In this document: positions 4,408-36,575 of the stretch, in pieces
Position numbering within the stretch: position 1 is the first letter of the stretch
How the letters are laid out: every line of letters starts with the position of its first letter
Source: a virus
Lineage: Duplodnaviria; Caudoviricetes
Length of the DNA stretch: 39,193 bases
IMG/VR virus record: IMGVR_UViG_3300016675_000014
Location: 1 to 39,193 of that record
Reading direction: 5' to 3' (one strand)
The notes under the pieces: model-generated
The model's input: the letters and a program-made list of their open reading frames with translations, nothing else
Told to the model about the DNA's origin: nothing
The model's database searches: none
Program-made: the position numbers and the translations under genes

Positions 4408-6330
4408 TCAACGAATCGGACAAGCGCCAGAAGCACATTCACTATCGTCCAGACCAATGTCGAGACTATCAATAGAAGTAATCAGACGGGTCTTAGCAAC
4501 CAGTTCATCATATTGTTCTTTTGTGATCTCTTCCAAAGGAGCCTGTTTGAATCCATGCTCATTATGCAACAAGAAAGAAAGGCTCTTATGATTGTTCTTA
4601 TAGTTCTTCTTGAGATACTTACGAATCTCAGGAAGCTCTTCTTTTCGATAGTATACAGTACAGCTCACGCTATTGTCACTCCAATTTTCCTGTAGCCACT
4701 TAACAGTTTCAAGCTGTTGAATAGCTGTCATGTCTTTAGCCAGCACAGCATGGTCAGGATGTCGGAACGGGAATGAAACGACAACAGTGCTGTGATCTTC
4801 TGAGCCATCAAAGTTTTGCTGAAACTCCACAGGATAGCCATGATCTCGACAAGTCTGCACCAAAGGATGGTTAGCAGAAATACGAATACGACGAATCATA
4901 TAACGAGCATAGGCAGGATGACAACCCGGCGTAACACCCGGAAGCAGCGACAACGTACCAGATGGCTTAACGGTTGTCAGCTTAATAGACGTTGGGAATC
5001 CGTGTTCTTTTGAATATTGCTTATCAAACTCACGCAGATCCTTATAAACATCTTTCAGCCAACTTTTCTGTTCTTCCGTAGCTTGGAGGAAGCCCGTGAC
5101 ACCAATACCCATACGCATATTTTTATGTACGATCTCTTCAGTGATCTTAAGATGGAACGGAAGAGCAAGCGAATGTTTGTTGACACGATAGAGAAGTTTG
5201 GCAACATCTAGCATTTCCTCTTTAGAAGTAATGTTCGGCAGATAAATTTCTGCAAGACAACAAGTTTCTCCATCAGCCAAGCTCTGTTCCGCGCAAGGGT
5301 TGTAACCTTGGACATCGGGATCAGGGTATTCGGTTTCACCAAGCCGCCCAATTTTACGGGACAGTTTAAGGTTAATGAGGCCATAAGGCTCTCCTTTGCC
5401 TTCGTATCCATCCCAGAAGAACTCATGAAGGTCTCCAATGTCGTGACAAACAACGCTGTTGTTGGACATGGCTCGCCAGCTTGGGATATTACCCAAGTCC
5501 CATCGTTTAGCAAGTAGATATTCAACGTCATCTGGATCTCCAATAGCAATCTGCGCACTGCGTCGAACATTACCAGCAACTACAATAGCACCAATAATGT
5601 TCATAATGTCAAGACAGTCAATAGGACGTAGCTTTCGACCGGCGCGTTTTTCAAGAACTTCACTGATTTTATTGATGCCCCATACAAGATCTTCAGGGCC
5701 AGAGGCTGTACCGCCAAAGCCTTTAATAGGAGCGCCTTTAGATCGAATCAATTTTGTAGAATACGTAAAGGTCTGCTTGCCACTAGAATGGGCTAGAAAC
5801 GCTGCTTTAAGCGTTTTACCAAGAAGGGCAACCCATCCTTCACGAGAATCAGGGACAATAAAATCAGCATCGGCAGTGTCAGTACGAGTAGGACACTTAA
5901 AATCCACATTGACTGGAGGAAGTTTTTCAACATTAACCTTTTGAATATTGTAGCCGACACCAGAACCTAGCATCAGCATGTCCATCGCCCACGTAAACGG
6001 CTCCACAGGAGATTTTACAACTTTAAAAGCACAGTTTTGTAGGCTTGCTCCACCAAGACGACCAACAGTATCAGTACCAAGCTGCCACAAGAAACGACCG
6101 GCCACAGTTCCTTTAAGCTCCATCAAATACTTCTTCAGACGTTCCTGCTCATCAGAAGTAAATCCTACGTTAAGCTGGCTATTAGAAGCAGTGACGACAC
6201 GATTAACAGTGTCTTCAAACTCTTCAGTAGGGCTATTAGGATCAGCTTCATTAAGACGACGAGCATAGGTACGTTTGTACGTAATGTACCCAACAGAGCT
6301 AAAGGGTGTTTCATATTTGTTTTCAGTCAT
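4408..6330 (-). CDS. nrdJ: Class II (adenosylcobalamin-dependent) ribonucleotide reductase
   Basis: YKRTYAR, SLQNC, VVAGNVRRSA, YNPCAEQ, TTVKPSGT and C-terminal CASGACPIR; no nrdB partner gene. Confidence 0.9.
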   Translation of the reverse strand: MTENKYETPFSSVGYITYKRTYARRLNEADPNSPTEEFEDTVNRVVTASNSQLNVGFTSDEQERLKKYLMELKGTVAGRFLWQLGTDTVGRLGGASLQNCAFKVVKSPVEPFTWAMDMLMLGSGVGYNIQKVNVEKLPPVNVDFKCPTRTDTADADFIVPDSREGWVALLGKTLKAAFLAHSSGKQTFTYSTKLIRSKGAPIKGFGGTASGPEDLVWGINKISEVLEKRAGRKLRPIDCLDIMNIIGAIVVAGNVRRSAQIAIGDPDDVEYLLAKRWDLGNIPSWRAMSNNSVVCHDIGDLHEFFWDGYEGKGEPYGLINLKLSRKIGRLGETEYPDPDVQGYNPCAEQSLADGETCCLAEIYLPNITSKEEMLDVAKLLYRVNKHSLALPFHLKITEEIVHKNMRMGIGVTGFLQATEEQKSWLKDVYKDLREFDKQYSKEHGFPTSIKLTTVKPSGTLSLLPGVTPGCHPAYARYMIRRIRISANHPLVQTCRDHGYPVEFQQNFDGSEDHSTVVVSFPFRHPDHAVLAKDMTAIQQLETVKWLQENWSDNSVSCTVYYRKEELPEIRKYLKKNYKNNHKSLSFLLHNEHGFKQAPLEEITKEQYDELVAKTRLITSIDSLDIGLDDSECASGACPIR

Positions 6331-6740
6331 TATTTCTCCGTTAAATATTTCTTTGCTTTTACCAACCAACCAAGATCATCTTTAATCAATCCAAGAGCGG
6401 TGTTGCACGACGGACACAGAAGACCTCGAACATTACCAACAGAATGACAGTGATCTACAAAAATCTTAGCTTCATCAAAGCTACGAGAACACAGAGCACA
6501 CTTGTTGTCCTGTTCTGAGAGCATAGCTTCAAATTGCTCATGTGTCAAGCCATAAAGATACTGTCTTTGCCATTTCTGGCGTTTCTCTTTGGTCTTGTCG
6601 TTATACTTCTTAGAATACTCAGCCGGTTTGTCAGGATTCTTGTCAATCCATTCTTTTTTGTAAGCGTCCAGTTTTTCTTTACGTTTCCGGTAGTAGTCTC
6701 TGAAGTATTGTTTCTTTGCCTCTGGATCAGCATGAGGCAT
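6330..6740 (-). CDS. Endonuclease VII-type HNH endonuclease (putative homing endonuclease)
   Basis: YGLT..QDNKCALC, VDHCH..GNVRGLLCPSCNTALG. Confidence 0.88.
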   Translation of the reverse strand: MPHADPEAKKQYFRDYYRKRKEKLDAYKKEWIDKNPDKPAEYSKKYNDKTKEKRQKWQRQYLYGLTHEQFEAMLSEQDNKCALCSRSFDEAKIFVDHCHSVGNVRGLLCPSCNTALGLIKDDLGWLVKAKKYLTEK

Positions 6741-6748
6741 AACTATCC

Positions 6749-6913
6749 TCAAAAGCCATTCATCATCCTCTTTAGTTTATCTATATTTTCTTCAATTCTG
6801 TCCTCAAAGGCTTCGACGAGTTCATCACTGTGGATATCTAACACCTCCATCAATGTGACCTCATCTAAGCTTGCAAGACGTTCTTTTAGTTCGTCAAGAG
6901 TAATCTCATTCAT
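6749..6913 (-). CDS. Small acidic hypothetical protein (54 aa; not in the ORF track)
   Basis: Hand translation MNEITLDELKERLASLDEVTLMEVLDIHSDELVEAFEDRIEE...; fills the gap and overlaps the upstream stop. Confidence 0.7.
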   Translation of the reverse strand: MNEITLDELKERLASLDEVTLMEVLDIHSDELVEAFEDRIEENIDKLKRMMNGF

Positions 6914-13009: not shown

Positions 13010-13204
13010 TTAGTGTAGCATGATCTTGTCTACTTTGTCAAGGTCTTCGGCGATATTTTCCAAATATTCTTGGATGCCTATCGCTACAGCCCACACAGTA
13101 AACAGATCAACTGTCTCTGTAGTCTTGACTTCAAAACTATCCTCATACAAATTGATTACAATCTGTCCTGTGATCTTATCAGGATCAGTGTATTTCTTTT
13201 TCAT
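13010..13204 (-). CDS. Hypothetical protein
   Basis: 64 aa ORF overlapping the methyltransferase stop. Confidence 0.6.
   Translation of the reverse strand: MKKKYTDPDKITGQIVINLYEDSFEVKTTETVDLFTVWAVAIGIQEYLENIAEDLDKVDKIMLH
13012..13041 (-). promoter_or_regulatory. Sigma70-type promoter for tRNA-ssb-exonuclease unit
   Basis: TTGACA-18 nt-TACACT with extended TG, about 15 nt upstream of the tRNA. Confidence 0.7.
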
Positions 13205-13916
13205 GTTGTTCCAATCTATTTTTTAACATTGTCCAAGCGGTTGCAGCACACAAGGGTACTTGGCCGTTTCCAATGGCTTTAAGTCTGTCCATCCTAGCGG
13301 CCACCCCATCATCCATTCGGTGAATTCCGGATGAATCTTTCCACCAACGTGAGTCGCAAGTGTTGGAGTCTTCCTGGTGTACTCCGCAGGATACGCCCCC
13401 TCCTTTGCGTTGTGACAAGTTGGTGTTGGAAGCAACGATCCACATACGTGCCCTCTTGTGATTAGCGCCAATGGAGCTTGCTGGTAACACTCCCCATTCA
13501 GCATTGTACCCCAATGAGGCAAGGTCTTGGAGGACAACACCGAGTCCTCTAGTGCGGAGCATAGCGGAGTTTTCAATGAAAGCGTAAGCTGGTTGGACTT
13601 CTCCGATGATTCTAGCCATGTGCTTCCACATACTGCTTCGACTTCCCCCAATACCTGCTCCTTGTCCTGCTGAGCTGATGTCTTGGCATGGAAATCCTCC
13701 AGATACGACATCAACAATTCCTCGCCACGGCTTTCCGTCAAAGGTTTGTACGTCATCCCAAATCGGGAAAGGCGGGAGAAGTCCGTCATTTTGTCGGGCG
13801 GCAAGTACGCTTGCTGGGTATGGTTCCCATTCAACGGCACAGACTGTTCGCCATCCAAGGATTTTTCCTCCAAGTATGCCTCCACCAGCGCCTGCGAAAA
13901 GAGCCAACTCATTCAT
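13185..13916 (-). CDS. C5 cytosine DNA methyltransferase, alpha-like chain
   Basis: LFAGAGG (motif I), GGFPCQD (IV), IENS (VI), HKRARMWIV (VIII), RLKAIGNGQVP (X); motif IX absent. Confidence 0.9.
   Translation of the reverse strand: MNELALFAGAGGGILGGKILGWRTVCAVEWEPYPASVLAARQNDGLLPPFPIWDDVQTFDGKPWRGIVDVVSGGFPCQDISSAGQGAGIGGSRSSMWKHMARIIGEVQPAYAFIENSAMLRTRGLGVVLQDLASLGYNAEWGVLPASSIGANHKRARMWIVASNTNLSQRKGGGVSCGVHQEDSNTCDSRWWKDSSGIHRMDDGVAARMDRLKAIGNGQVPLCAATAWTMLKNRLEQHEKEIH
13223..13912 (-). CDS. Overlapping-frame methyltransferase beta-like chain carrying motif IX
   Basis: 229 codons open inside the MTase gene; LLPTPT and IHPEFTEWMMGWPLGWT resemble a TRD/motif IX region. Confidence 0.65.
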   Translation of the reverse strand: MSWLFSQALVEAYLEEKSLDGEQSVPLNGNHTQQAYLPPDKMTDFSRLSRFGMTYKPLTESRGEELLMSYLEDFHAKTSAQQDKEQVLGEVEAVCGSTWLESSEKSNQLTLSLKTPLCSALEDSVLSSKTLPHWGTMLNGECYQQAPLALITRGHVCGSLLPTPTCHNAKEGAYPAEYTRKTPTLATHVGGKIHPEFTEWMMGWPLGWTDLKPLETAKYPCVLQPLGQC

Positions 13917-14338
13917 TGTTCCTCCTTGATGCCGTGGGCGGCTTCGATGGCGCGGGCAAACTCGATCATTTCTGCGTCACTACGCGGCTCGTTGTACATT
14001 TCCATGATCTGATCATCCGTCAGAGGCTTGCGCTGTGTTGGTAAGGCTGTGTAGAGGGGTTCAACCCATCCTTTATGTTTGGGGTGTGTCTTGTTCCATT
14101 CATCGGCGTAGTTCTCGTTCATGTCGTAGTTACGGTAGTCGTAATCTCCCTCACCATCAAACGTGCGCCAAGCCACAGGCTCCTGCTCAGGTTTAGACAA
14201 ACGAGCATACAAGTATAAACGAGCATCTTTTGCTTTAGCATAAGCCTTACTTCCATACGGTAGATCGTATTTTCTAAACTCTTGCATCATGTCTTCTAAG
14301 GCTTCAAAAGCTTTCTGAAATAGTTCTCTATCAATCAT
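13913..14338 (-). CDS. Hypothetical mosaic phage protein
   Basis: EQEPVAW, PLYT, RKPLTDDQI, FARAIEAAHGI modules; ATG overlaps the polymerase stop. Confidence 0.65.
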   Translation of the reverse strand: MIDRELFQKAFEALEDMMQEFRKYDLPYGSKAYAKAKDARLYLYARLSKPEQEPVAWRTFDGEGDYDYRNYDMNENYADEWNKTHPKHKGWVEPLYTALPTQRKPLTDDQIMEMYNEPRSDAEMIEFARAIEAAHGIKEEQ

Positions 14339-15246
14339 CAGTGTGTTTCTTTCCAAGTTCGTCCAATTTTGTATTCTCCGTCTAGAGGACAGCGGAGCTT
14401 GAAATACTCCCCTGCTTCAATGATTGACATTCTAGCAGCTTTGCCTGCCTCTTCCGCTACCGAAGGAGGACACTCAAACTGAAATTCATCATGCACATTA
14501 GCGACTAGCTTCACAGGCCACTTATTAGCCTTGATCTTGTCGTAGAAAAGACACAAAGCCTTCTTCATCACGATAGCTCCAGCGCCTTGTAGGAGACTAT
14601 TCAGGGCTGCATGTTCTGAGCGTACCCATATGCGTCTGCCGTCCAAGCCGGGAACCCATCCTTTAGCTGCTTGTCGTTTAACTCGATCCAAGAGCCGGGC
14701 GAGGGCCGGTGTTTGTTTAAGGAACTTTGCTTTAAGTCTTTCTCCATCTTTTGCTGATCCTCCAACGATGCTACCAATCTTTGCATCTCCTGCACCGTAG
14801 AGGAATGCATAGATAAAAGTTTTTGCATTATCCCGAGTAGCGAGTCCTGCTGCTCTTTGGTTAACTGTGTGAACATCTGTACCATCTTTAGATGATCCCT
14901 CACAGACAGTTCTGACATAATCGCCATCCTTCATATAGTGAGCAAGCATCCGAAGCTCCAAGCCTGAAGCATCACAGCCTACCAAGACATTTCCTTCTTC
15001 AACAGTCCAGCACTCACGACACTCATGCCCATAGACAGAACCTGCATTAGGAATCTGTGCCATGTTAGGGCTACTGTGCGTCATACGGCCTGTCACTGCT
15101 CCGTTGGTGATTACTCGTCCATGAACTCGCCCATCCTCTCCAATAGCTTCAAGCCATGATTCTACTTGACTAACTCGTTTCTGAAGAAGAAGATACTCTT
15201 TAACAAGCTCAGCAAGTTCAAGCAGTTTATCATCGTTTGTGTTCAT
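14338..15246 (-). CDS. Family A DNA polymerase, C-terminal polymerase part
   Basis: TGRMTHSSPN, DASGLELR (motif A), RDNAKTFIYAFLYG (B), NVHDE (C). Confidence 0.93.
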   Translation of the reverse strand: MNTNDDKLLELAELVKEYLLLQKRVSQVESWLEAIGEDGRVHGRVITNGAVTGRMTHSSPNMAQIPNAGSVYGHECRECWTVEEGNVLVGCDASGLELRMLAHYMKDGDYVRTVCEGSSKDGTDVHTVNQRAAGLATRDNAKTFIYAFLYGAGDAKIGSIVGGSAKDGERLKAKFLKQTPALARLLDRVKRQAAKGWVPGLDGRRIWVRSEHAALNSLLQGAGAIVMKKALCLFYDKIKANKWPVKLVANVHDEFQFECPPSVAEEAGKAARMSIIEAGEYFKLRCPLDGEYKIGRTWKETH

Positions 15247-15616
15247 CAATGTACCGTAAAGCTGCTTCTAGTTTGTCTTCTCTCTTTTCAAGATAACCTA
15301 TCAAAGTATTGCAGGCACTACAGATAAGTTTTCTTACTTTTCCAGTAGTATGACAATGATCTATGCAAAGTTTCTTGTGATGAGAGTCAGGATACTTTTC
15401 TGCTAAAGCTTCTTCAGTGATTCCACAGCAATAGCACTTGTACCCTTGTGCTTCGCGCATTCTATCATACTCTTCTAACGAAATTCCATACTTATACTTT
15501 AGGTCAGCATCTGTACGTTCTTTCTTAGTGTTTTGATAGTACGCTTTCTTTTGTTCTTTGATACGTTCCTTATTCTTTTCGTTCCACTGTCTGTGATACT
15601 CTTTTCTGTTTGACAT
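15230..15616 (-). CDS. Endonuclease VII-type HNH endonuclease inserted in the DNA polymerase gene
   Basis: YKYGIS..QGYKCYCC, IDHCHTTGKVRKLICSACNTLIG; overlaps both polymerase fragments. Confidence 0.88.
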   Translation of the reverse strand: MSNRKEYHRQWNEKNKERIKEQKKAYYQNTKKERTDADLKYKYGISLEEYDRMREAQGYKCYCCGITEEALAEKYPDSHHKKLCIDHCHTTGKVRKLICSACNTLIGYLEKREDKLEAALRYIDEHKR

Positions 15617-16448
15617 TTTTAATGATTTCCTCTAGGACAGATTCGTCAATGATTACAGAACCTTTCTCTGTGAATCTTGTTGGCTTCCATCCAAGTTCTT
15701 GTAGCTTTTCTGCTACTTGTTGTCTTGATCCCATGTTGAACACAGTCGTGGAATCTTTGAGTCGTTTTCCTGTTTTTTCGCTGTATCGTTCTGTTGTGAT
15801 TGGAGGGTAGAGTTGTTGCGCTCTTCCAAGTATTTCTGAAATGCGGTTTTTCCAGTCAACAAGTAACAAAGTACATTGTTCCACCGATAATTTGAATCCA
15901 TTGCGTTCCTGTTCTGCGATTATAGCCGCGACTTTGTGTTCCAGTTCAACTGACTCTTGCGAAAACTGTTTCTCAGAAATCTCATTGCATAGTTTAAGAT
16001 ACAGTTTAGCACAAACTTCAACGTCCCTAATGCAATAAGACTCCAGAAGACTATCAACAGGTTTATCGAAACATTCTCCATCGTATTCCTCTCGTCGTCC
16101 TTGGAGCCATTGCCATACGGACTTATAGTTAATCTTCCTGAAGCCTAGAGACTGTCCCCATGCCTCCAGAGAGTGTCCTTGTTCCCTGCTCGGATCTAGA
16201 AGCCTGCTTACGATAAGAGTGTCGAATACGTGCTTCAATCTGATCTTCGTCTTCCATGATCTGTTCAACACTGGAAAATCGAATCCTATTCCATTGTGAG
16301 CAATCAGGAGTGTAGCCTTGTTTAGATAGTCGTTTAGGCCAGTTGCTTCTTTCCATGTTCTTACTTCGCCTGTATCAATGTCTTTAGTGACTACCAGATG
16401 GATCTTCTTGTGTGATAGATCCGTTTCGATGTCTAGAACGATCCTCAT
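15570..16448 (-). CDS. Family A DNA polymerase, N-terminal 3'-5' exonuclease/thumb part
   Basis: VLDIETD (Exo I), HNGIGFD (II), YCIRDV (III), QERNGF, FNMGSRQQ, TEKG..IDESVL. Confidence 0.92.
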   Translation of the reverse strand: MRIVLDIETDLSHKKIHLVVTKDIDTGEVRTWKEATGLNDYLNKATLLIAHNGIGFDFPVLNRSWKTKIRLKHVFDTLIVSRLLDPSREQGHSLEAWGQSLGFRKINYKSVWQWLQGRREEYDGECFDKPVDSLLESYCIRDVEVCAKLYLKLCNEISEKQFSQESVELEHKVAAIIAEQERNGFKLSVEQCTLLLVDWKNRISEILGRAQQLYPPITTERYSEKTGKRLKDSTTVFNMGSRQQVAEKLQELGWKPTRFTEKGSVIIDESVLEEIIKNVKQKRVSQTVERKE

Positions 16449-17510: not shown

Positions 17511-17640
17511 CCTCTTGATGTTGCTTTACAAGTTCCTCTTTAGGTTTAGGGCGGAAGATCCTCTCCCATCCTTCCTCGTAAGCCTTCTGATCCTGTTGCT
17601 TACGTGGTGTGTCGCCTTTACCAGCTTCATGTGCTGTCAT
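17494..17640 (-). CDS. Small hypothetical protein (48 aa; not in the ORF track)
   Basis: MTAHEAGKGDTPRK...WERIF; ATGA overlap with the HNH stop; SD aagga. Confidence 0.6.
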   Translation of the reverse strand: MTAHEAGKGDTPRKQQDQKAYEEGWERIFRPKPKEELVKQHQEDDCND

Positions 17641-18125
17641 GTATTTTTTTCCTTCAAATATGTAATTGCTGCTTCCAAGACGGAAACATCATCTTTAGAC
17701 TTACCGATCATTGTATTACAGTTTGTACAAAGAAGGCCACGAACTTTATCAGTTGTGTGACAATGGTCTACACAGAGTGCAGTACTACTAGTAACTGCTT
17801 TTCCTTGTTCAACATCTTGCTCATGTCTTCCGCAAATAGCACAGCAATAGTTTTGAATCTTTCTCAACTGATTATATTGCTGTAATGTAATACCATATCG
17901 GCGTAGTCGTTGTTCCTTTGCCTTATCAGGATTGTTTTTATACCAGTTGCTTGAGCCTCTTTTATGAATTTCCTTCTTTTCAGGATTCTCCAAGTGTTTT
18001 TTTCTACGACAAACCATACATGTTGAATCTTTATATGCTTTTCGAGTACCGTCAGAAAGCGTATGATACGTATTACCAAACTTTTCATCAGGTAGCTCTT
18101 GGGCGCAAACTTTACATTGTTTCAT
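17637..18125 (-). CDS. Endonuclease VII-type HNH endonuclease
   Basis: N-terminal CKVC...CMVC finger; YGIT..QNYCCAIC; VDHCHTTDKVRGLLCTNCNTMIG. Confidence 0.88.
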   Translation of the reverse strand: MKQCKVCAQELPDEKFGNTYHTLSDGTRKAYKDSTCMVCRRKKHLENPEKKEIHKRGSSNWYKNNPDKAKEQRLRRYGITLQQYNQLRKIQNYCCAICGRHEQDVEQGKAVTSSTALCVDHCHTTDKVRGLLCTNCNTMIGKSKDDVSVLEAAITYLKEKNT

Positions 18126-34605: not shown

Positions 34606-36150
34606 ATGGCCCAACAGATTCAAACGTATTCCATCACAGCTCCGGGCTTCTTCGGATTGAATACTCAGGATAGCTCACTGGACTTAGCCTCTGGCTTTGC
34701 TCTAGTGGCTAATAATTGTGTTATTGACAAATATGGTCGTATTGGTGCTCGTAAAGGATGGCAAGCAAAGCACTCTACGTTAGGTGCTCTGGGTACTGCT
34801 GATGTTAAGATGATTGCTCAGTTGTTGACTGAAGCAGGTATTCAGTACACGGTAGCTGCAGGTAATAACAAACTGTTTAAGCTCTCCGGTGGTGTTCTGT
34901 CTGAACTGACCTACGGAGGCGGTGGCGTAGCTCCTACGATTACAGACAGTAACTGGCAAGCAGCTTCTTTAAATGGTATCTTGTATCTGTTCCAGAGCGG
35001 GCACGATCCTTTGGTATTTGATCCTGCTTTAAGCACTACAGAGTATCGCAGAGCTTCTGAGCACGCAGGCTACACGGGAACTGTATTAGCTGGTGACTGT
35101 GCTATCTCTGCTTTTGGACGTATCTGGACAGCTAACTCTACTACAAACAAAGACACCGTTTACTTCTCTGATCTATTGTCTGGTATGAAATGGTCAGGAG
35201 GTACTTCAGGTTACTTAGATGTCACCCAATACTGGCCTAATGGAGCAGACAACATTACGGCTTTGGCAGCCCATAATAACTATCTGTTTATCTTTGGTCG
35301 TAATAACATTCTTGTCTATGCCAACGCTAATGATCCCTCTAATCTCGTATTATCTGATACAATTACTGGTATTGGATGCATTGCAAGGGACTCTGTGGCT
35401 AACACCGGCTCAGATGTCATCTTCCTCTCCGACACCGGGGTCAGAAGCGTACTGAGGACTATCCAAGAGAAGTCTGCTCCTTTCCGTGACCTGAGTAAGA
35501 ATGTACGTGATGATCTGATGTCTGCTGTGGCTGGTGAAGTAGCTACTACGATCAAATCAGTCTATAGTCCCTTTGACTCATTCTACTTGATTACTCTTCC
35601 TGTGCTTAAGACTGTGTACTGCTTTGACTTAAAAGCTACACTGCAGGATGGTTCGGCTAGGGTAACTACTTGGGACAGCATTCAGCCTAAGAGCTTCTGC
35701 TACGATAATATTAATAAAGAATTATTACTTGGTAAAGCAGGATATATCGCTGAATACACGGGTTATGTAGACAACACAGATTCATATCGCTTTCAGTACT
35801 TTACCAACCACACAGACTTGGGCGCTCCTTCAGTTACTTCGGTGCTTAAGAAGCTATCTGTAGTTGTCATTGGTGGTACAAACCAATATGTTTCTATGAA
35901 GTGGGGTTACGACTTTACTTCAAATTATTACTCTCAAACTGCAAAAATTCCTGAACAAGGGGTTGACTATTACGGCGTAGGAGAGTATAATATAGCTCAG
36001 TATTCTGGCGGTACTGCTCTGCAGACTCTTGTAGCTTATCCTACAGGTGCAGGTAAAGTTATCCAGACAGGTTATGAGGCAGACATCACCGGTGCTCCTT
36101 TGAGTGTCCAGAAGTTGGAACTTCAGGCAAAGCAAGGTAAAATTGTATGA
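34606..36150 (+). CDS. Tail nozzle / DNA stabilisation protein (tubular B or P22 gp10-like)
   Basis: APGFFGLN, TVYFSD, GIGCIARDS, FLSDTGVRS beta-propeller-like motifs. Confidence 0.75.
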   Translation: MAQQIQTYSITAPGFFGLNTQDSSLDLASGFALVANNCVIDKYGRIGARKGWQAKHSTLGALGTADVKMIAQLLTEAGIQYTVAAGNNKLFKLSGGVLSELTYGGGGVAPTITDSNWQAASLNGILYLFQSGHDPLVFDPALSTTEYRRASEHAGYTGTVLAGDCAISAFGRIWTANSTTNKDTVYFSDLLSGMKWSGGTSGYLDVTQYWPNGADNITALAAHNNYLFIFGRNNILVYANANDPSNLVLSDTITGIGCIARDSVANTGSDVIFLSDTGVRSVLRTIQEKSAPFRDLSKNVRDDLMSAVAGEVATTIKSVYSPFDSFYLITLPVLKTVYCFDLKATLQDGSARVTTWDSIQPKSFCYDNINKELLLGKAGYIAEYTGYVDNTDSYRFQYFTNHTDLGAPSVTSVLKKLSVVVIGGTNQYVSMKWGYDFTSNYYSQTAKIPEQGVDYYGVGEYNIAQYSGGTALQTLVAYPTGAGKVIQTGYEADITGAPLSVQKLELQAKQGKIV

Positions 36151-36575
36151 CTTGTGTATGTAAGCGTTGCGGTATTGAGAAACCGCTTAGTGAGTACTAT
36201 AAAACTTCTGATAGAAAATCTGGGCATAAAACAATCTGTAAAGACTGCATCAAAGCAGATCCTCTAACAGAAGAACGAAAAGCAAAGATGAGAGCTTATG
36301 GTAAAGACTATCATCTGAAGACTCAATATAACATGACAAGGGAAGATCATAACAAACTTCTCGTTGCTCAAAACCATAAATGTGCTATTTGTGGAATAGA
36401 CGAAAAAGAAGCCGTGAAGCAAAAACTTTACGTAGATCATTGTCACACTACGGGTAAAGTTAGAGAACTTCTTTGTCATTCTTGCAATGCTGGTTTAGGT
36501 CTTTTAAAAGAATCTATACCTATTCTTGCTAAAGCAATAGCTTACTTAGACAAACATACTAAACAAGGAGAATAA
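36147..36575 (+). CDS. Endonuclease VII-type HNH endonuclease
   Basis: CKRC...CKDC finger; QNHKCAIC; VDHCHTTGKVRELLCHSCNAGLG. Confidence 0.88.
   Translation: MTCVCKRCGIEKPLSEYYKTSDRKSGHKTICKDCIKADPLTEERKAKMRAYGKDYHLKTQYNMTREDHNKLLVAQNHKCAICGIDEKEAVKQKLYVDHCHTTGKVRELLCHSCNAGLGLLKESIPILAKAIAYLDKHTKQGE

What the first reader, a model, noticed from the sequence alone, without database searches (positions are those of the whole stretch)
14338..16448. Only DNA polymerase is split in two by an intron-less endonuclease gene, with a duplicated QKRVSQ peptide on both sides of the break
Seen: the exonuclease/thumb half (16448-15570) and the polymerase half (15246-14338) are separated by an Endo VII-type HNH ORF that overlaps both. 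That leaves no non-coding room for a group I intron core, and there is no intein. All catalytic motifs of both halves are intact. The N-half ends ...DESVLEEIIKNVK-QKRVSQ-TVERKE* and the C-half begins MNTNDDKLLELAELVKEYLLL-QKRVSQ-VESW. The same hexapeptide is encoded with different codons (cagaaaagagtatcacag vs cagaaacgagttagtcaa), and the first copy also encodes the HNH N-terminus in another frame. Established: phage Aeh1 nrdA is split by the HNH gene mobE and works as two polypeptides. Inference: this is a two-chain family A polymerase broken in the thumb and expressed by translational coupling through the HNH gene. The repeated peptide is either an insertion scar or a retained interface helix.
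Basis: partly seen in the sequence, partly recalled or inferred. Interest (0 to 1): 0.85.

Follow-up and report, generated by a model that had tools for sequence, protein, structure and literature searches.

The report
Swappable cassette splits phage DNA polymerase

Summary
The split is real. polA is cut between thumb helices H2 and I (T7 gp5 ~370-384): 16448-15570 and 15246-14338. An Endo VII-motif nuclease gene overlaps both halves. No intron or intein signal; independent contigs span the junctions.

It is a family trait. 30 distinct inserts sit at this site: 8 nucleases of two families, 22 other cargoes (DNA methylases, small unknown genes). Split alleles are scattered among intact ones (AU p=0.00014), some with 97-100% identical flanks and sharp breakpoints. 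Both halves show purifying selection.

The conserved new ends (DEIIK; LKExAEL) match the helix extensions of six intact long-loop polymerases, the likely donor lineage. One re-fused protein also exists.

QKRVSQ is not conserved: exact in 1 of 30 inserts, QKRVPQ in the nearest relative. It is mostly the -1 frame of the nuclease's RKEY motif.

Best reading: a two-chain polymerase on a homing-derived cassette, analogous to T4 MobA/topoisomerase and Aeh1 nrdA. Binding, activity and homing are untested; the complex-prediction queue was full. The scan earlier noted thumb-split polymerases in other phage groups. Verdict: new variant of a known kind.

The parts
15570..16448 (-). polA N-half: 3'-5' exonuclease plus thumb up to helix H2, 292 aa
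   Evidence: AF2 mean pLDDT 88.6
15633..15887 (-). Thumb tract (about codons 188-272) that travels with nuclease-bearing alleles and is shared with intact long-loop polymerases
   Evidence: identity to intact L003 falls from mostly 90-100% to 43-73% here, while staying 93-100% to L031 over about 60 codons; tree
15570..15632 (-). N-chain tail EEIIKNVKQKRVSQTVERKE*; EEIIK is the family-conserved part and holds the likely SD (GAGGA) of the nuclease gene
15591..15608 (-). QKRVSQ copy 1, the -1 frame of nuclease codons N-R-K-E-Y-H-R; not conserved
15230..15616 (-). Endo VII-motif (DHHRN-type) endonuclease gene, 128 aa, residues D86 H87 H89 R95 N103 and C61/C64/C99/C102 present; likely homing endonuclease
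   Evidence: motif as defined in PMC6083498
15208..15246 (-). C-chain head MNTNDDKLLELAE, predicted to extend helix I; L(-14), A(-10), L(-8) invariant in 30 of 30 inserts
15166..15183 (-). QKRVSQ copy 2, the normal conserved helix I motif (T7 QKRIGQ)
14338..15246 (-). polA C-half: thumb helix I, palm and fingers, motifs A, B (Tyr at the T7 Y526 position) and C, 302 aa
   Evidence: AF2 mean pLDDT 82.5

Best explanation
The phage's T7-type DNA polymerase gene is in two pieces around an endonuclease gene, and the pieces are likely translated separately and likely assemble into one two-chain enzyme through the thumb helices. Shown: the layout, intact catalytic motifs, the same break in many relatives with varied cargo, conserved ends, and exchange with intact alleles. 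Inferred steps: (1) a nuclease gene entered the short turn of a long-loop polA allele, whose extended helices H2 and I became the two chain ends; (2) overlapping stop/start codons couple translation of N-half, cargo and C-half; (3) nuclease-driven homing with co-conversion moved the thumb tract, insert and C-head into short-loop alleles; (4) the nuclease was often replaced by neighbouring genes, and the minimal cassette keeps recombining in and out between the conserved DExVL and EYLMLQKR blocks; (5) rarely the halves re-fuse. QKRVSQ in the tail is most likely incidental.
For: 7 of 78 junction-visible loci in a scan by C-half similarity are split here. 30 distinct inserts from 60 split loci, 285-1427 nt from DE to Q, in all three frames (19/8/3). 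Cargo: Endo VII x4, HNH_3 x4, methylases and unknown genes. A start codon in the C frame precedes the head in all 30. 62 of the top 120 protein clusters are stand-alone C-halves with this head. L(-14) is invariant with all six Leu codons. Median dN/dS 0.24 (N) and 0.105 (C) in split pairs, 0.20 and 0.094 in intact pairs. One clade of split C-cores rejected, p-AU 0.00014, 23 against 32 rows. Sharp breakpoints in L169/L028 and L131/L076. Six intact long-loop polymerases, e.g. P0124 EEIIK-GNPSEK-LKEFAELVKDY, cluster with all 8 nuclease alleles by thumb tract (100/91 support). P0027 is a re-fusion keeping both ends.
Against: No protein-level data. Nuclease activity and target are untested. dN/dS partly reflects history as intact alleles, because flanks recombine. 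The C-half start has only a weak SD in the window. General recombination is heavy in this family and could scatter split alleles without homing. The direction long-loop to split is not proven: 90 columns, no root, and nuclease plus long-loop rows alone are rejected as a clade (p 0.029) because L083 and two short-loop rows fall inside. N-tail positions 1-5 were required by the search pattern, so their conservation is circular except in the 7 loci and those.
Confidence: 0.75

Rival explanations
1. Two chains, but the split spreads by ordinary homologous recombination as a near-neutral allele; the nucleases are passengers that invaded an existing intergenic gap.
For: 22 of 30 inserts have no nuclease. 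The window carries three more Endo VII-motif genes elsewhere. PMC2988022 notes the same ambiguity for phage 25 gene 43.
Against: All 8 nuclease alleles share the long-loop-type thumb tract, against 1 of 12 other-cargo alleles in the tree. The tract is 93-100% identical between the window and L031 although the rest of the gene is about 76%.
Confidence: 0.25
2. One chain made by ribosomal bypass, for example from CAG-AAA in the tail to CAG-AAA in the C-half, or by frameshifting.
For: Matching codons CAG AAA exist in both copies; 19 of 30 inserts have some identical codon pair giving near-native length.
Against: Gaps are 240-1382 nt of translated genes against 50 nt in T4 gene 60. No pair is conserved in position and 11 of 30 inserts have none. 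A QK-to-QK hop would delete the invariant A-x-L-x-x-x-Y of helix I. No junction RNA structure (z 0.39, 1.12, 0.82, -1.35).
Confidence: 0.04
3. The insert is removed by RNA or protein splicing of an unrecognised kind.
For: Phage polA genes are common hosts of group I introns (PMC11878797).
Against: Zero non-coding bases here against 350 +/- 108 in those introns. No Rfam intron hit. Inserts unrelated in sequence and frame. Two contigs of RNA library X17 keep both junctions unspliced (may be DNA). Ends too short for inteins, no Hint domain.
Confidence: 0.03
4. QKRVSQ in the tail is selected, as a duplication remnant or a helix I mimic that caps or regulates the free N-chain.
For: Exact hexamer has probability 0.4% given the nuclease peptide and codon usage, 2.4% given an open frame. 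Only 2 of 64 nuclease relatives have [RK]KEY.
Against: S to P in L002/L179, silent for the nuclease. Absent from 28 of 30 inserts. KR[IV][SP] arises in 37% of random codon choices and appears behind a stop in L139 and in L186, a nuclease outside polA. pLDDT 54.
Confidence: 0.12
5. The locus is a dead gene or an assembly artefact.
For: Metagenome assembly only; run X1 may be the source of this DNA.
Against: Independent contigs across the junctions; L002 and L179; purifying selection; no other polymerase in a record rated 100% complete.
Confidence: 0.02

Closest known systems
MobA element in the topoisomerase large-subunit gene of T4-like phages (bioRxiv 10.1101/2022.08.31.505936; passages and sections 6-7 read)
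   Same: Nuclease gene overlapping both halves out of frame; fixed site; conserved new termini; replaces a short piece of the intact gene; near-identical split/intact pairs; nuclease swapped or lost; secondary fusion.
   Different: Different host gene. No bypass sequence. Ends are about 5-15 residues, not about 44, and look inherited from a long-loop allele. The nuclease is replaced mostly by methylases and unknown genes.
Aeh1 nrdA-a/mobE/nrdA-b (Crona et al., PMC3045599; abstract and passages read)
   Same: Intron-less, intein-less endonuclease splits an essential gene into two polypeptides with tails.
   Different: There the tails are novel, charged and proven essential; here nothing is tested and the ends resemble native helix extensions.
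Split exo|pol PolA of S-SBP1-like / clade B T7-like cyanophages (PMC10201439, PMC12695635; passages read)
   Same: T7-like family A polymerase on two genes, predicted to reassemble.
   Different: Cut at the exo/pol domain boundary by a frameshift, no insert; here the cut is inside the thumb with cargo.
MEP401/MEP402 OM43 phages (PMC10580990; passages read)
   Same: polA on two ORFs with a small unknown ORF between.
   Different: Another phage group; mechanism left open there (intron suggested); I did not map its break against this one.
Split gene 43 of Aeromonas phages 25 and 44RR (as summarised in PMC2988022; passages read)
   Same: Phage DNA polymerase in two chains, with a homing endonuclease or other spacer between.
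   Different: Family B enzyme.
F-CphI / DHHRN homing endonucleases (PMC6083498; abstract and passages read)
   Same: D, H, H, R, N catalytic residues present; the phage has its own T7 endonuclease I resolvase.
   Different: Those in polA genes are intron-encoded; this one has no intron.

Membership tests
Genes-in-pieces by free-standing homing endonuclease (mobE/nrdA, mobA/topo) | Endonuclease gene inside an essential gene that is intact in relatives | tested here: met
   71 intact and 7 split among 78 junction-visible loci
Genes-in-pieces by free-standing homing endonuclease (mobE/nrdA, mobA/topo) | No intron or intein | tested here: met
Genes-in-pieces by free-standing homing endonuclease (mobE/nrdA, mobA/topo) | Conserved added termini on both halves | tested here: met
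   probably inherited from a long-loop allele
Genes-in-pieces by free-standing homing endonuclease (mobE/nrdA, mobA/topo) | Two polypeptides made and assembled into an active enzyme | not testable with these tools
   no proteomics or assay; complex prediction not run, queue full
Genes-in-pieces by free-standing homing endonuclease (mobE/nrdA, mobA/topo) | Mobility with co-conversion of flanks | tested here: inconclusive
   polyphyly and tract sharing fit but ordinary recombination is not excluded
DHHRN (Endo VII-motif) endonucleases | D, H, H, R, N residues and zinc-binding cysteines | tested here: met
   D86 H87 H89 R95 N103, C61/64/99/102 in the sequence; definition
DHHRN (Endo VII-motif) endonucleases | Sequence-specific cleavage of the insert-free allele | not testable with these tools
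   no assay
Group I / II intron | Non-coding catalytic RNA core | tested here: not met
   no non-coding base, no Rfam match
Split intein fractured gene | Hint N- and C-intein halves on the fragments | tested here: not met
   no intein domain in Pfam scan; tails of 20 and about 8 residues
Gene 60-type translational bypass | Conserved matched take-off/landing codons, short gap, stem-loop | tested here: not met
T7-like PolA (cluster 5 of PMC10201439) | Closest solved relative is T7 gp5; exo and pol motifs intact | tested here: met
   intact relative L003 against T7 gp5 E 6e-85
S-SBP1-like split PolA | Break at the exo/pol boundary by a +1 frameshift, no insert | tested here: not met
   break is in the thumb, with an inserted gene

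The most novel reading that the evidence does not exclude
The thumb-tip split is a self-repairing, gene-capturing mobile cassette. Its two short helix ends let any gene sit inside the essential polymerase gene. Because it deletes the native junction, it may also make its carrier immune to the homing nucleases that target polA, so methylases and other cargo hitchhike through the phage population on that immunity without a nuclease of their own.
Probability: 0.25. Interest if true: 0.72.

Novelty: new variant of a known kind. Interest (0 to 1): 0.52.

Why it matters
It gives a natural, selection-tested split site in a T7-type polymerase, useful for split-enzyme design. It shows the whole life cycle of a genes-in-pieces element in one family: likely intact donor, nuclease-bearing form, cargo swap and re-fusion. 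That bears on how tolerated split sites and their tails arise. Practically, polA is a marker gene in viromics, and about 9% (7 of 78) of the closest alleles would be miscalled as fragments or pseudogenes.

Tried and rejected
Complex prediction of the two chains: the queue was full, so it was never run and there is no result either way.

Rfam scan: no intron. Junction folding: nothing beyond shuffles. Promoter/terminator scan: no excess and no terminator on the coding strand. Repeat search of 15100-15750: only short matches, including the 11-nt core of the two QKRVSQ copies.

Cultured phage collection: best matches to the C-half 60% or less; I did not open these records, so a cultured split example is not excluded.

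Search with the nuclease: only L002 is close. The other 79 of 80 loci are 31-47% identical and none lies inside polA by tblastn.

The motifs FN[MI]G and KGS[IV]I looked specific to nuclease alleles within close relatives (7 loci unparsed). They are common in intact short-loop polymerases of more distant phages (94 of 101 and 56 of 62 distinct segments), so they are not markers by themselves.

My first reading of L030 as a re-fusion was weakened by five further long-loop proteins. 35 of the pattern hits were not polA. RNA-library contigs cannot show transcription. PMC4246154 (whole text) and PMC7468147 (passages) were not relevant.

Full report
Context. The window is a whole 39,193-base virus record rated 100% complete. 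It is a podovirus-like phage with T7-type primase-helicase, exonuclease and endonuclease I, class II RNR, Thy1, PhoH, terminase, portal and capsid. Holding runs are mostly freshwater, estuary and aquatic metagenomes. The only polymerase matches are the two PolA halves; there is no PolB.

Observation. Against T7 gp5, via the intact relative L003, the break falls between DDEVL (365-369) and LIKEY (385-389). This is the loop between thumb helices H2 and I; the helix names are recalled. Rfam gave no intron, Pfam no intein, and the junctions fold no better than shuffles. One contig of run X4, from another study, spans both junctions (15113-15799); X2 and X3 cover parts; no joint skipping the insert was listed in the 8 runs laid.

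A family trait. Of 80 loci found by similarity to the C-half, 71 are intact, 7 split at this site and 2 lack the junction. Pattern scans raised this to 60 split loci of 179 examined. Many are the same contig fetched twice; they reduce to 30 distinct inserts including the window. Cargo: Endo VII-motif nucleases 4, HNH_3 nucleases 4, C5 methylase modules 3, N6/N4 methylases 2, unknown genes 16, and one mixed array (representatives scanned). DE-to-Q distances are 285-1427 nt in all three frames. Cargo starts usually overlap the N-half stop (ATGA) behind an AAGGAG inside the tail codons, and a C-frame start codon lies at or inside the cargo's end. In the protein database, 62 of the best 120 clusters of 166-529 residues are stand-alone C-halves starting 19-28 residues before the Q; 49 are fragments of intact proteins and 9 other.

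What is conserved. The N-chain ends [DE][EQ]II[KQ], with C two residues later in 24 of 30; the first five positions were forced by the pattern. The C-chain head has L(-14), A(-10) and L(-8) in 30 of 30, L(-14) with all six Leu codons. AF2 models the head as one helix, residues 3-21, pLDDT about 70, and the N-half well up to residue 280 (82), falling to 54 over 281-290. Median dN/dS: split pairs 0.24 (N, 147 of 435 pairs in range) and 0.105 (C, 89 of 435); intact pairs 0.20 (408 of 1326) and 0.094 (222 of 1326).

The hexapeptide. It is exact in 1 of 30 inserts. L002/L179, with an identical nuclease protein, read QKRVPQ through a TAT/TAC change silent in the nuclease frame. L139's related nuclease (TRKEYQQKW) gives KRIS in the same frame, but behind the stop; so does L186, a nuclease outside polA. 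Random codon choice for the nuclease peptide yields KR[IV][SP] in 37% and the exact hexamer in 0.4%, or 2.4% of open frames. Against this, only 2 of 64 nuclease relatives have [RK]KEY, so the match is a mild coincidence, not a triviality. I give 12% to a selected role.

Mobility. Split alleles are scattered through the tree of 82 distinct genes (16 short or unparsed loci dropped). For 55 C-cores with the 30 junction-proximal columns removed, one split clade is rejected (p-AU 0.00014; 12 changes). L169 (methylase cargo) is 97-100% identical to intact L028 over nearly all windows up to about 210 codons past the junction, and L131 mostly 97-100% to L076; identity breaks right after DExVL and resumes at EY, so the cassette replaces about 36-45 nt. 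The window is mostly 90-100% identical to intact L003 up to about codon 188, then 43-73%. Over about 60 codons of that tract it is 93-100% identical to L031, whose nuclease is only 44% identical. Heavy general recombination is also visible.

Origin. The H2-I loop is 9 residues in 114 of 121 intact proteins examined. Six proteins have 16-17 residues, e.g. P0124 EEIIK-GNPSEK-LKEFAELVKDY, which is the N-tail, a turn and the C-head in one chain. By the 90-column thumb tract, all 6 group with all 8 nuclease alleles, one other-cargo allele and two short-loop proteins (100/91); L030 is sister to the window's group (99/95). The simplest reading is a nuclease gene entering that turn. An old re-fusion that then diverged is not excluded. 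P0027, with a 29-residue loop holding both IIKECE and LRETATL on a short-loop-type thumb, is a clear re-fusion.

Mechanism. Shown: layout, motifs, family spread, conserved ends, allele exchange. Inferred: separate coupled translation, assembly through the thumb helices, homing, cargo swap. Two-chain function 85-90%; the full model with nuclease-driven spread from a long-loop donor about 75% for the cassette and 60-65% for the donor direction. Bypass and splicing together under 10%. The complex prediction could not be run.

Comparison. It works like the MobA element (bioRxiv 2022.08.31.505936) and Aeh1 nrdA (PMC3045599). Split PolA is in print for S-SBP1-like cyanophages (PMC10201439; PMC12695635) and MEP401/402 (PMC10580990), at other or unmapped positions and without this cassette behaviour. 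Eight full-text searches of the open library listed no paper on this thumb-tip cassette; subscription journals and supplements were not seen, and the bioRxiv supplement is closed.

Verdict. Real, likely functional, a new variant of genes-in-pieces. Its value is the complete evolutionary series and the cargo swapping, not the repeated peptide. Interest 0.52.

Noticed in passing
window 13185-13916 and 13223-13912 (-): C5 methylase ORF (243 aa) fully overlapped by a 229-aa ORF in another frame, starts 4 nt apart; the same layout is cargo in L086, L092, L099 and L161. The scan has noted this two-frame methylase elsewhere.
   Followed up: no
window 6330-6752, 15230-15616, 17637-18125, 36147-36575: Four Endo VII-motif nuclease genes in one 39-kb genome: beside RNR, inside polA, between primase-helicase and polA, and among virion genes.
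   Followed up: partly
L161 3042-4411: Array of several cargo modules in the gap with a 47-codon partial copy of the C-half start, joined to another cargo gene at an 8-nt microhomology; suggests cassettes accrete by illegitimate recombination. One contig only.
   Followed up: partly
L093, L099, L100, L117, L161, L176 C-halves: These C-halves are only 55-59% identical to the window's beyond about 40 codons while their N-halves can be 97% identical to close intact relatives, suggesting whole palm/fingers halves are swapped.
   Followed up: no
L101 534-1115 and L083 1505-2062: Cargo of PHROG 12600 (unknown function) with an HPPC motif that recalls C5 methylases (recalled, no Pfam hit).
   Followed up: no
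L262, L264, L267 and relatives: A distant intact polA group has a 14-residue loop KTIKEPELKLTAE that also resembles the tail plus head of the split form.
   Followed up: no
window 13913-14356 (-): The gene just downstream of polA resembles by eye the cargo of L079 (PVAWR, KPLTxDxI, ARAIEAAHGIK), so cargo may be drawn from local neighbours.
   Followed up: no
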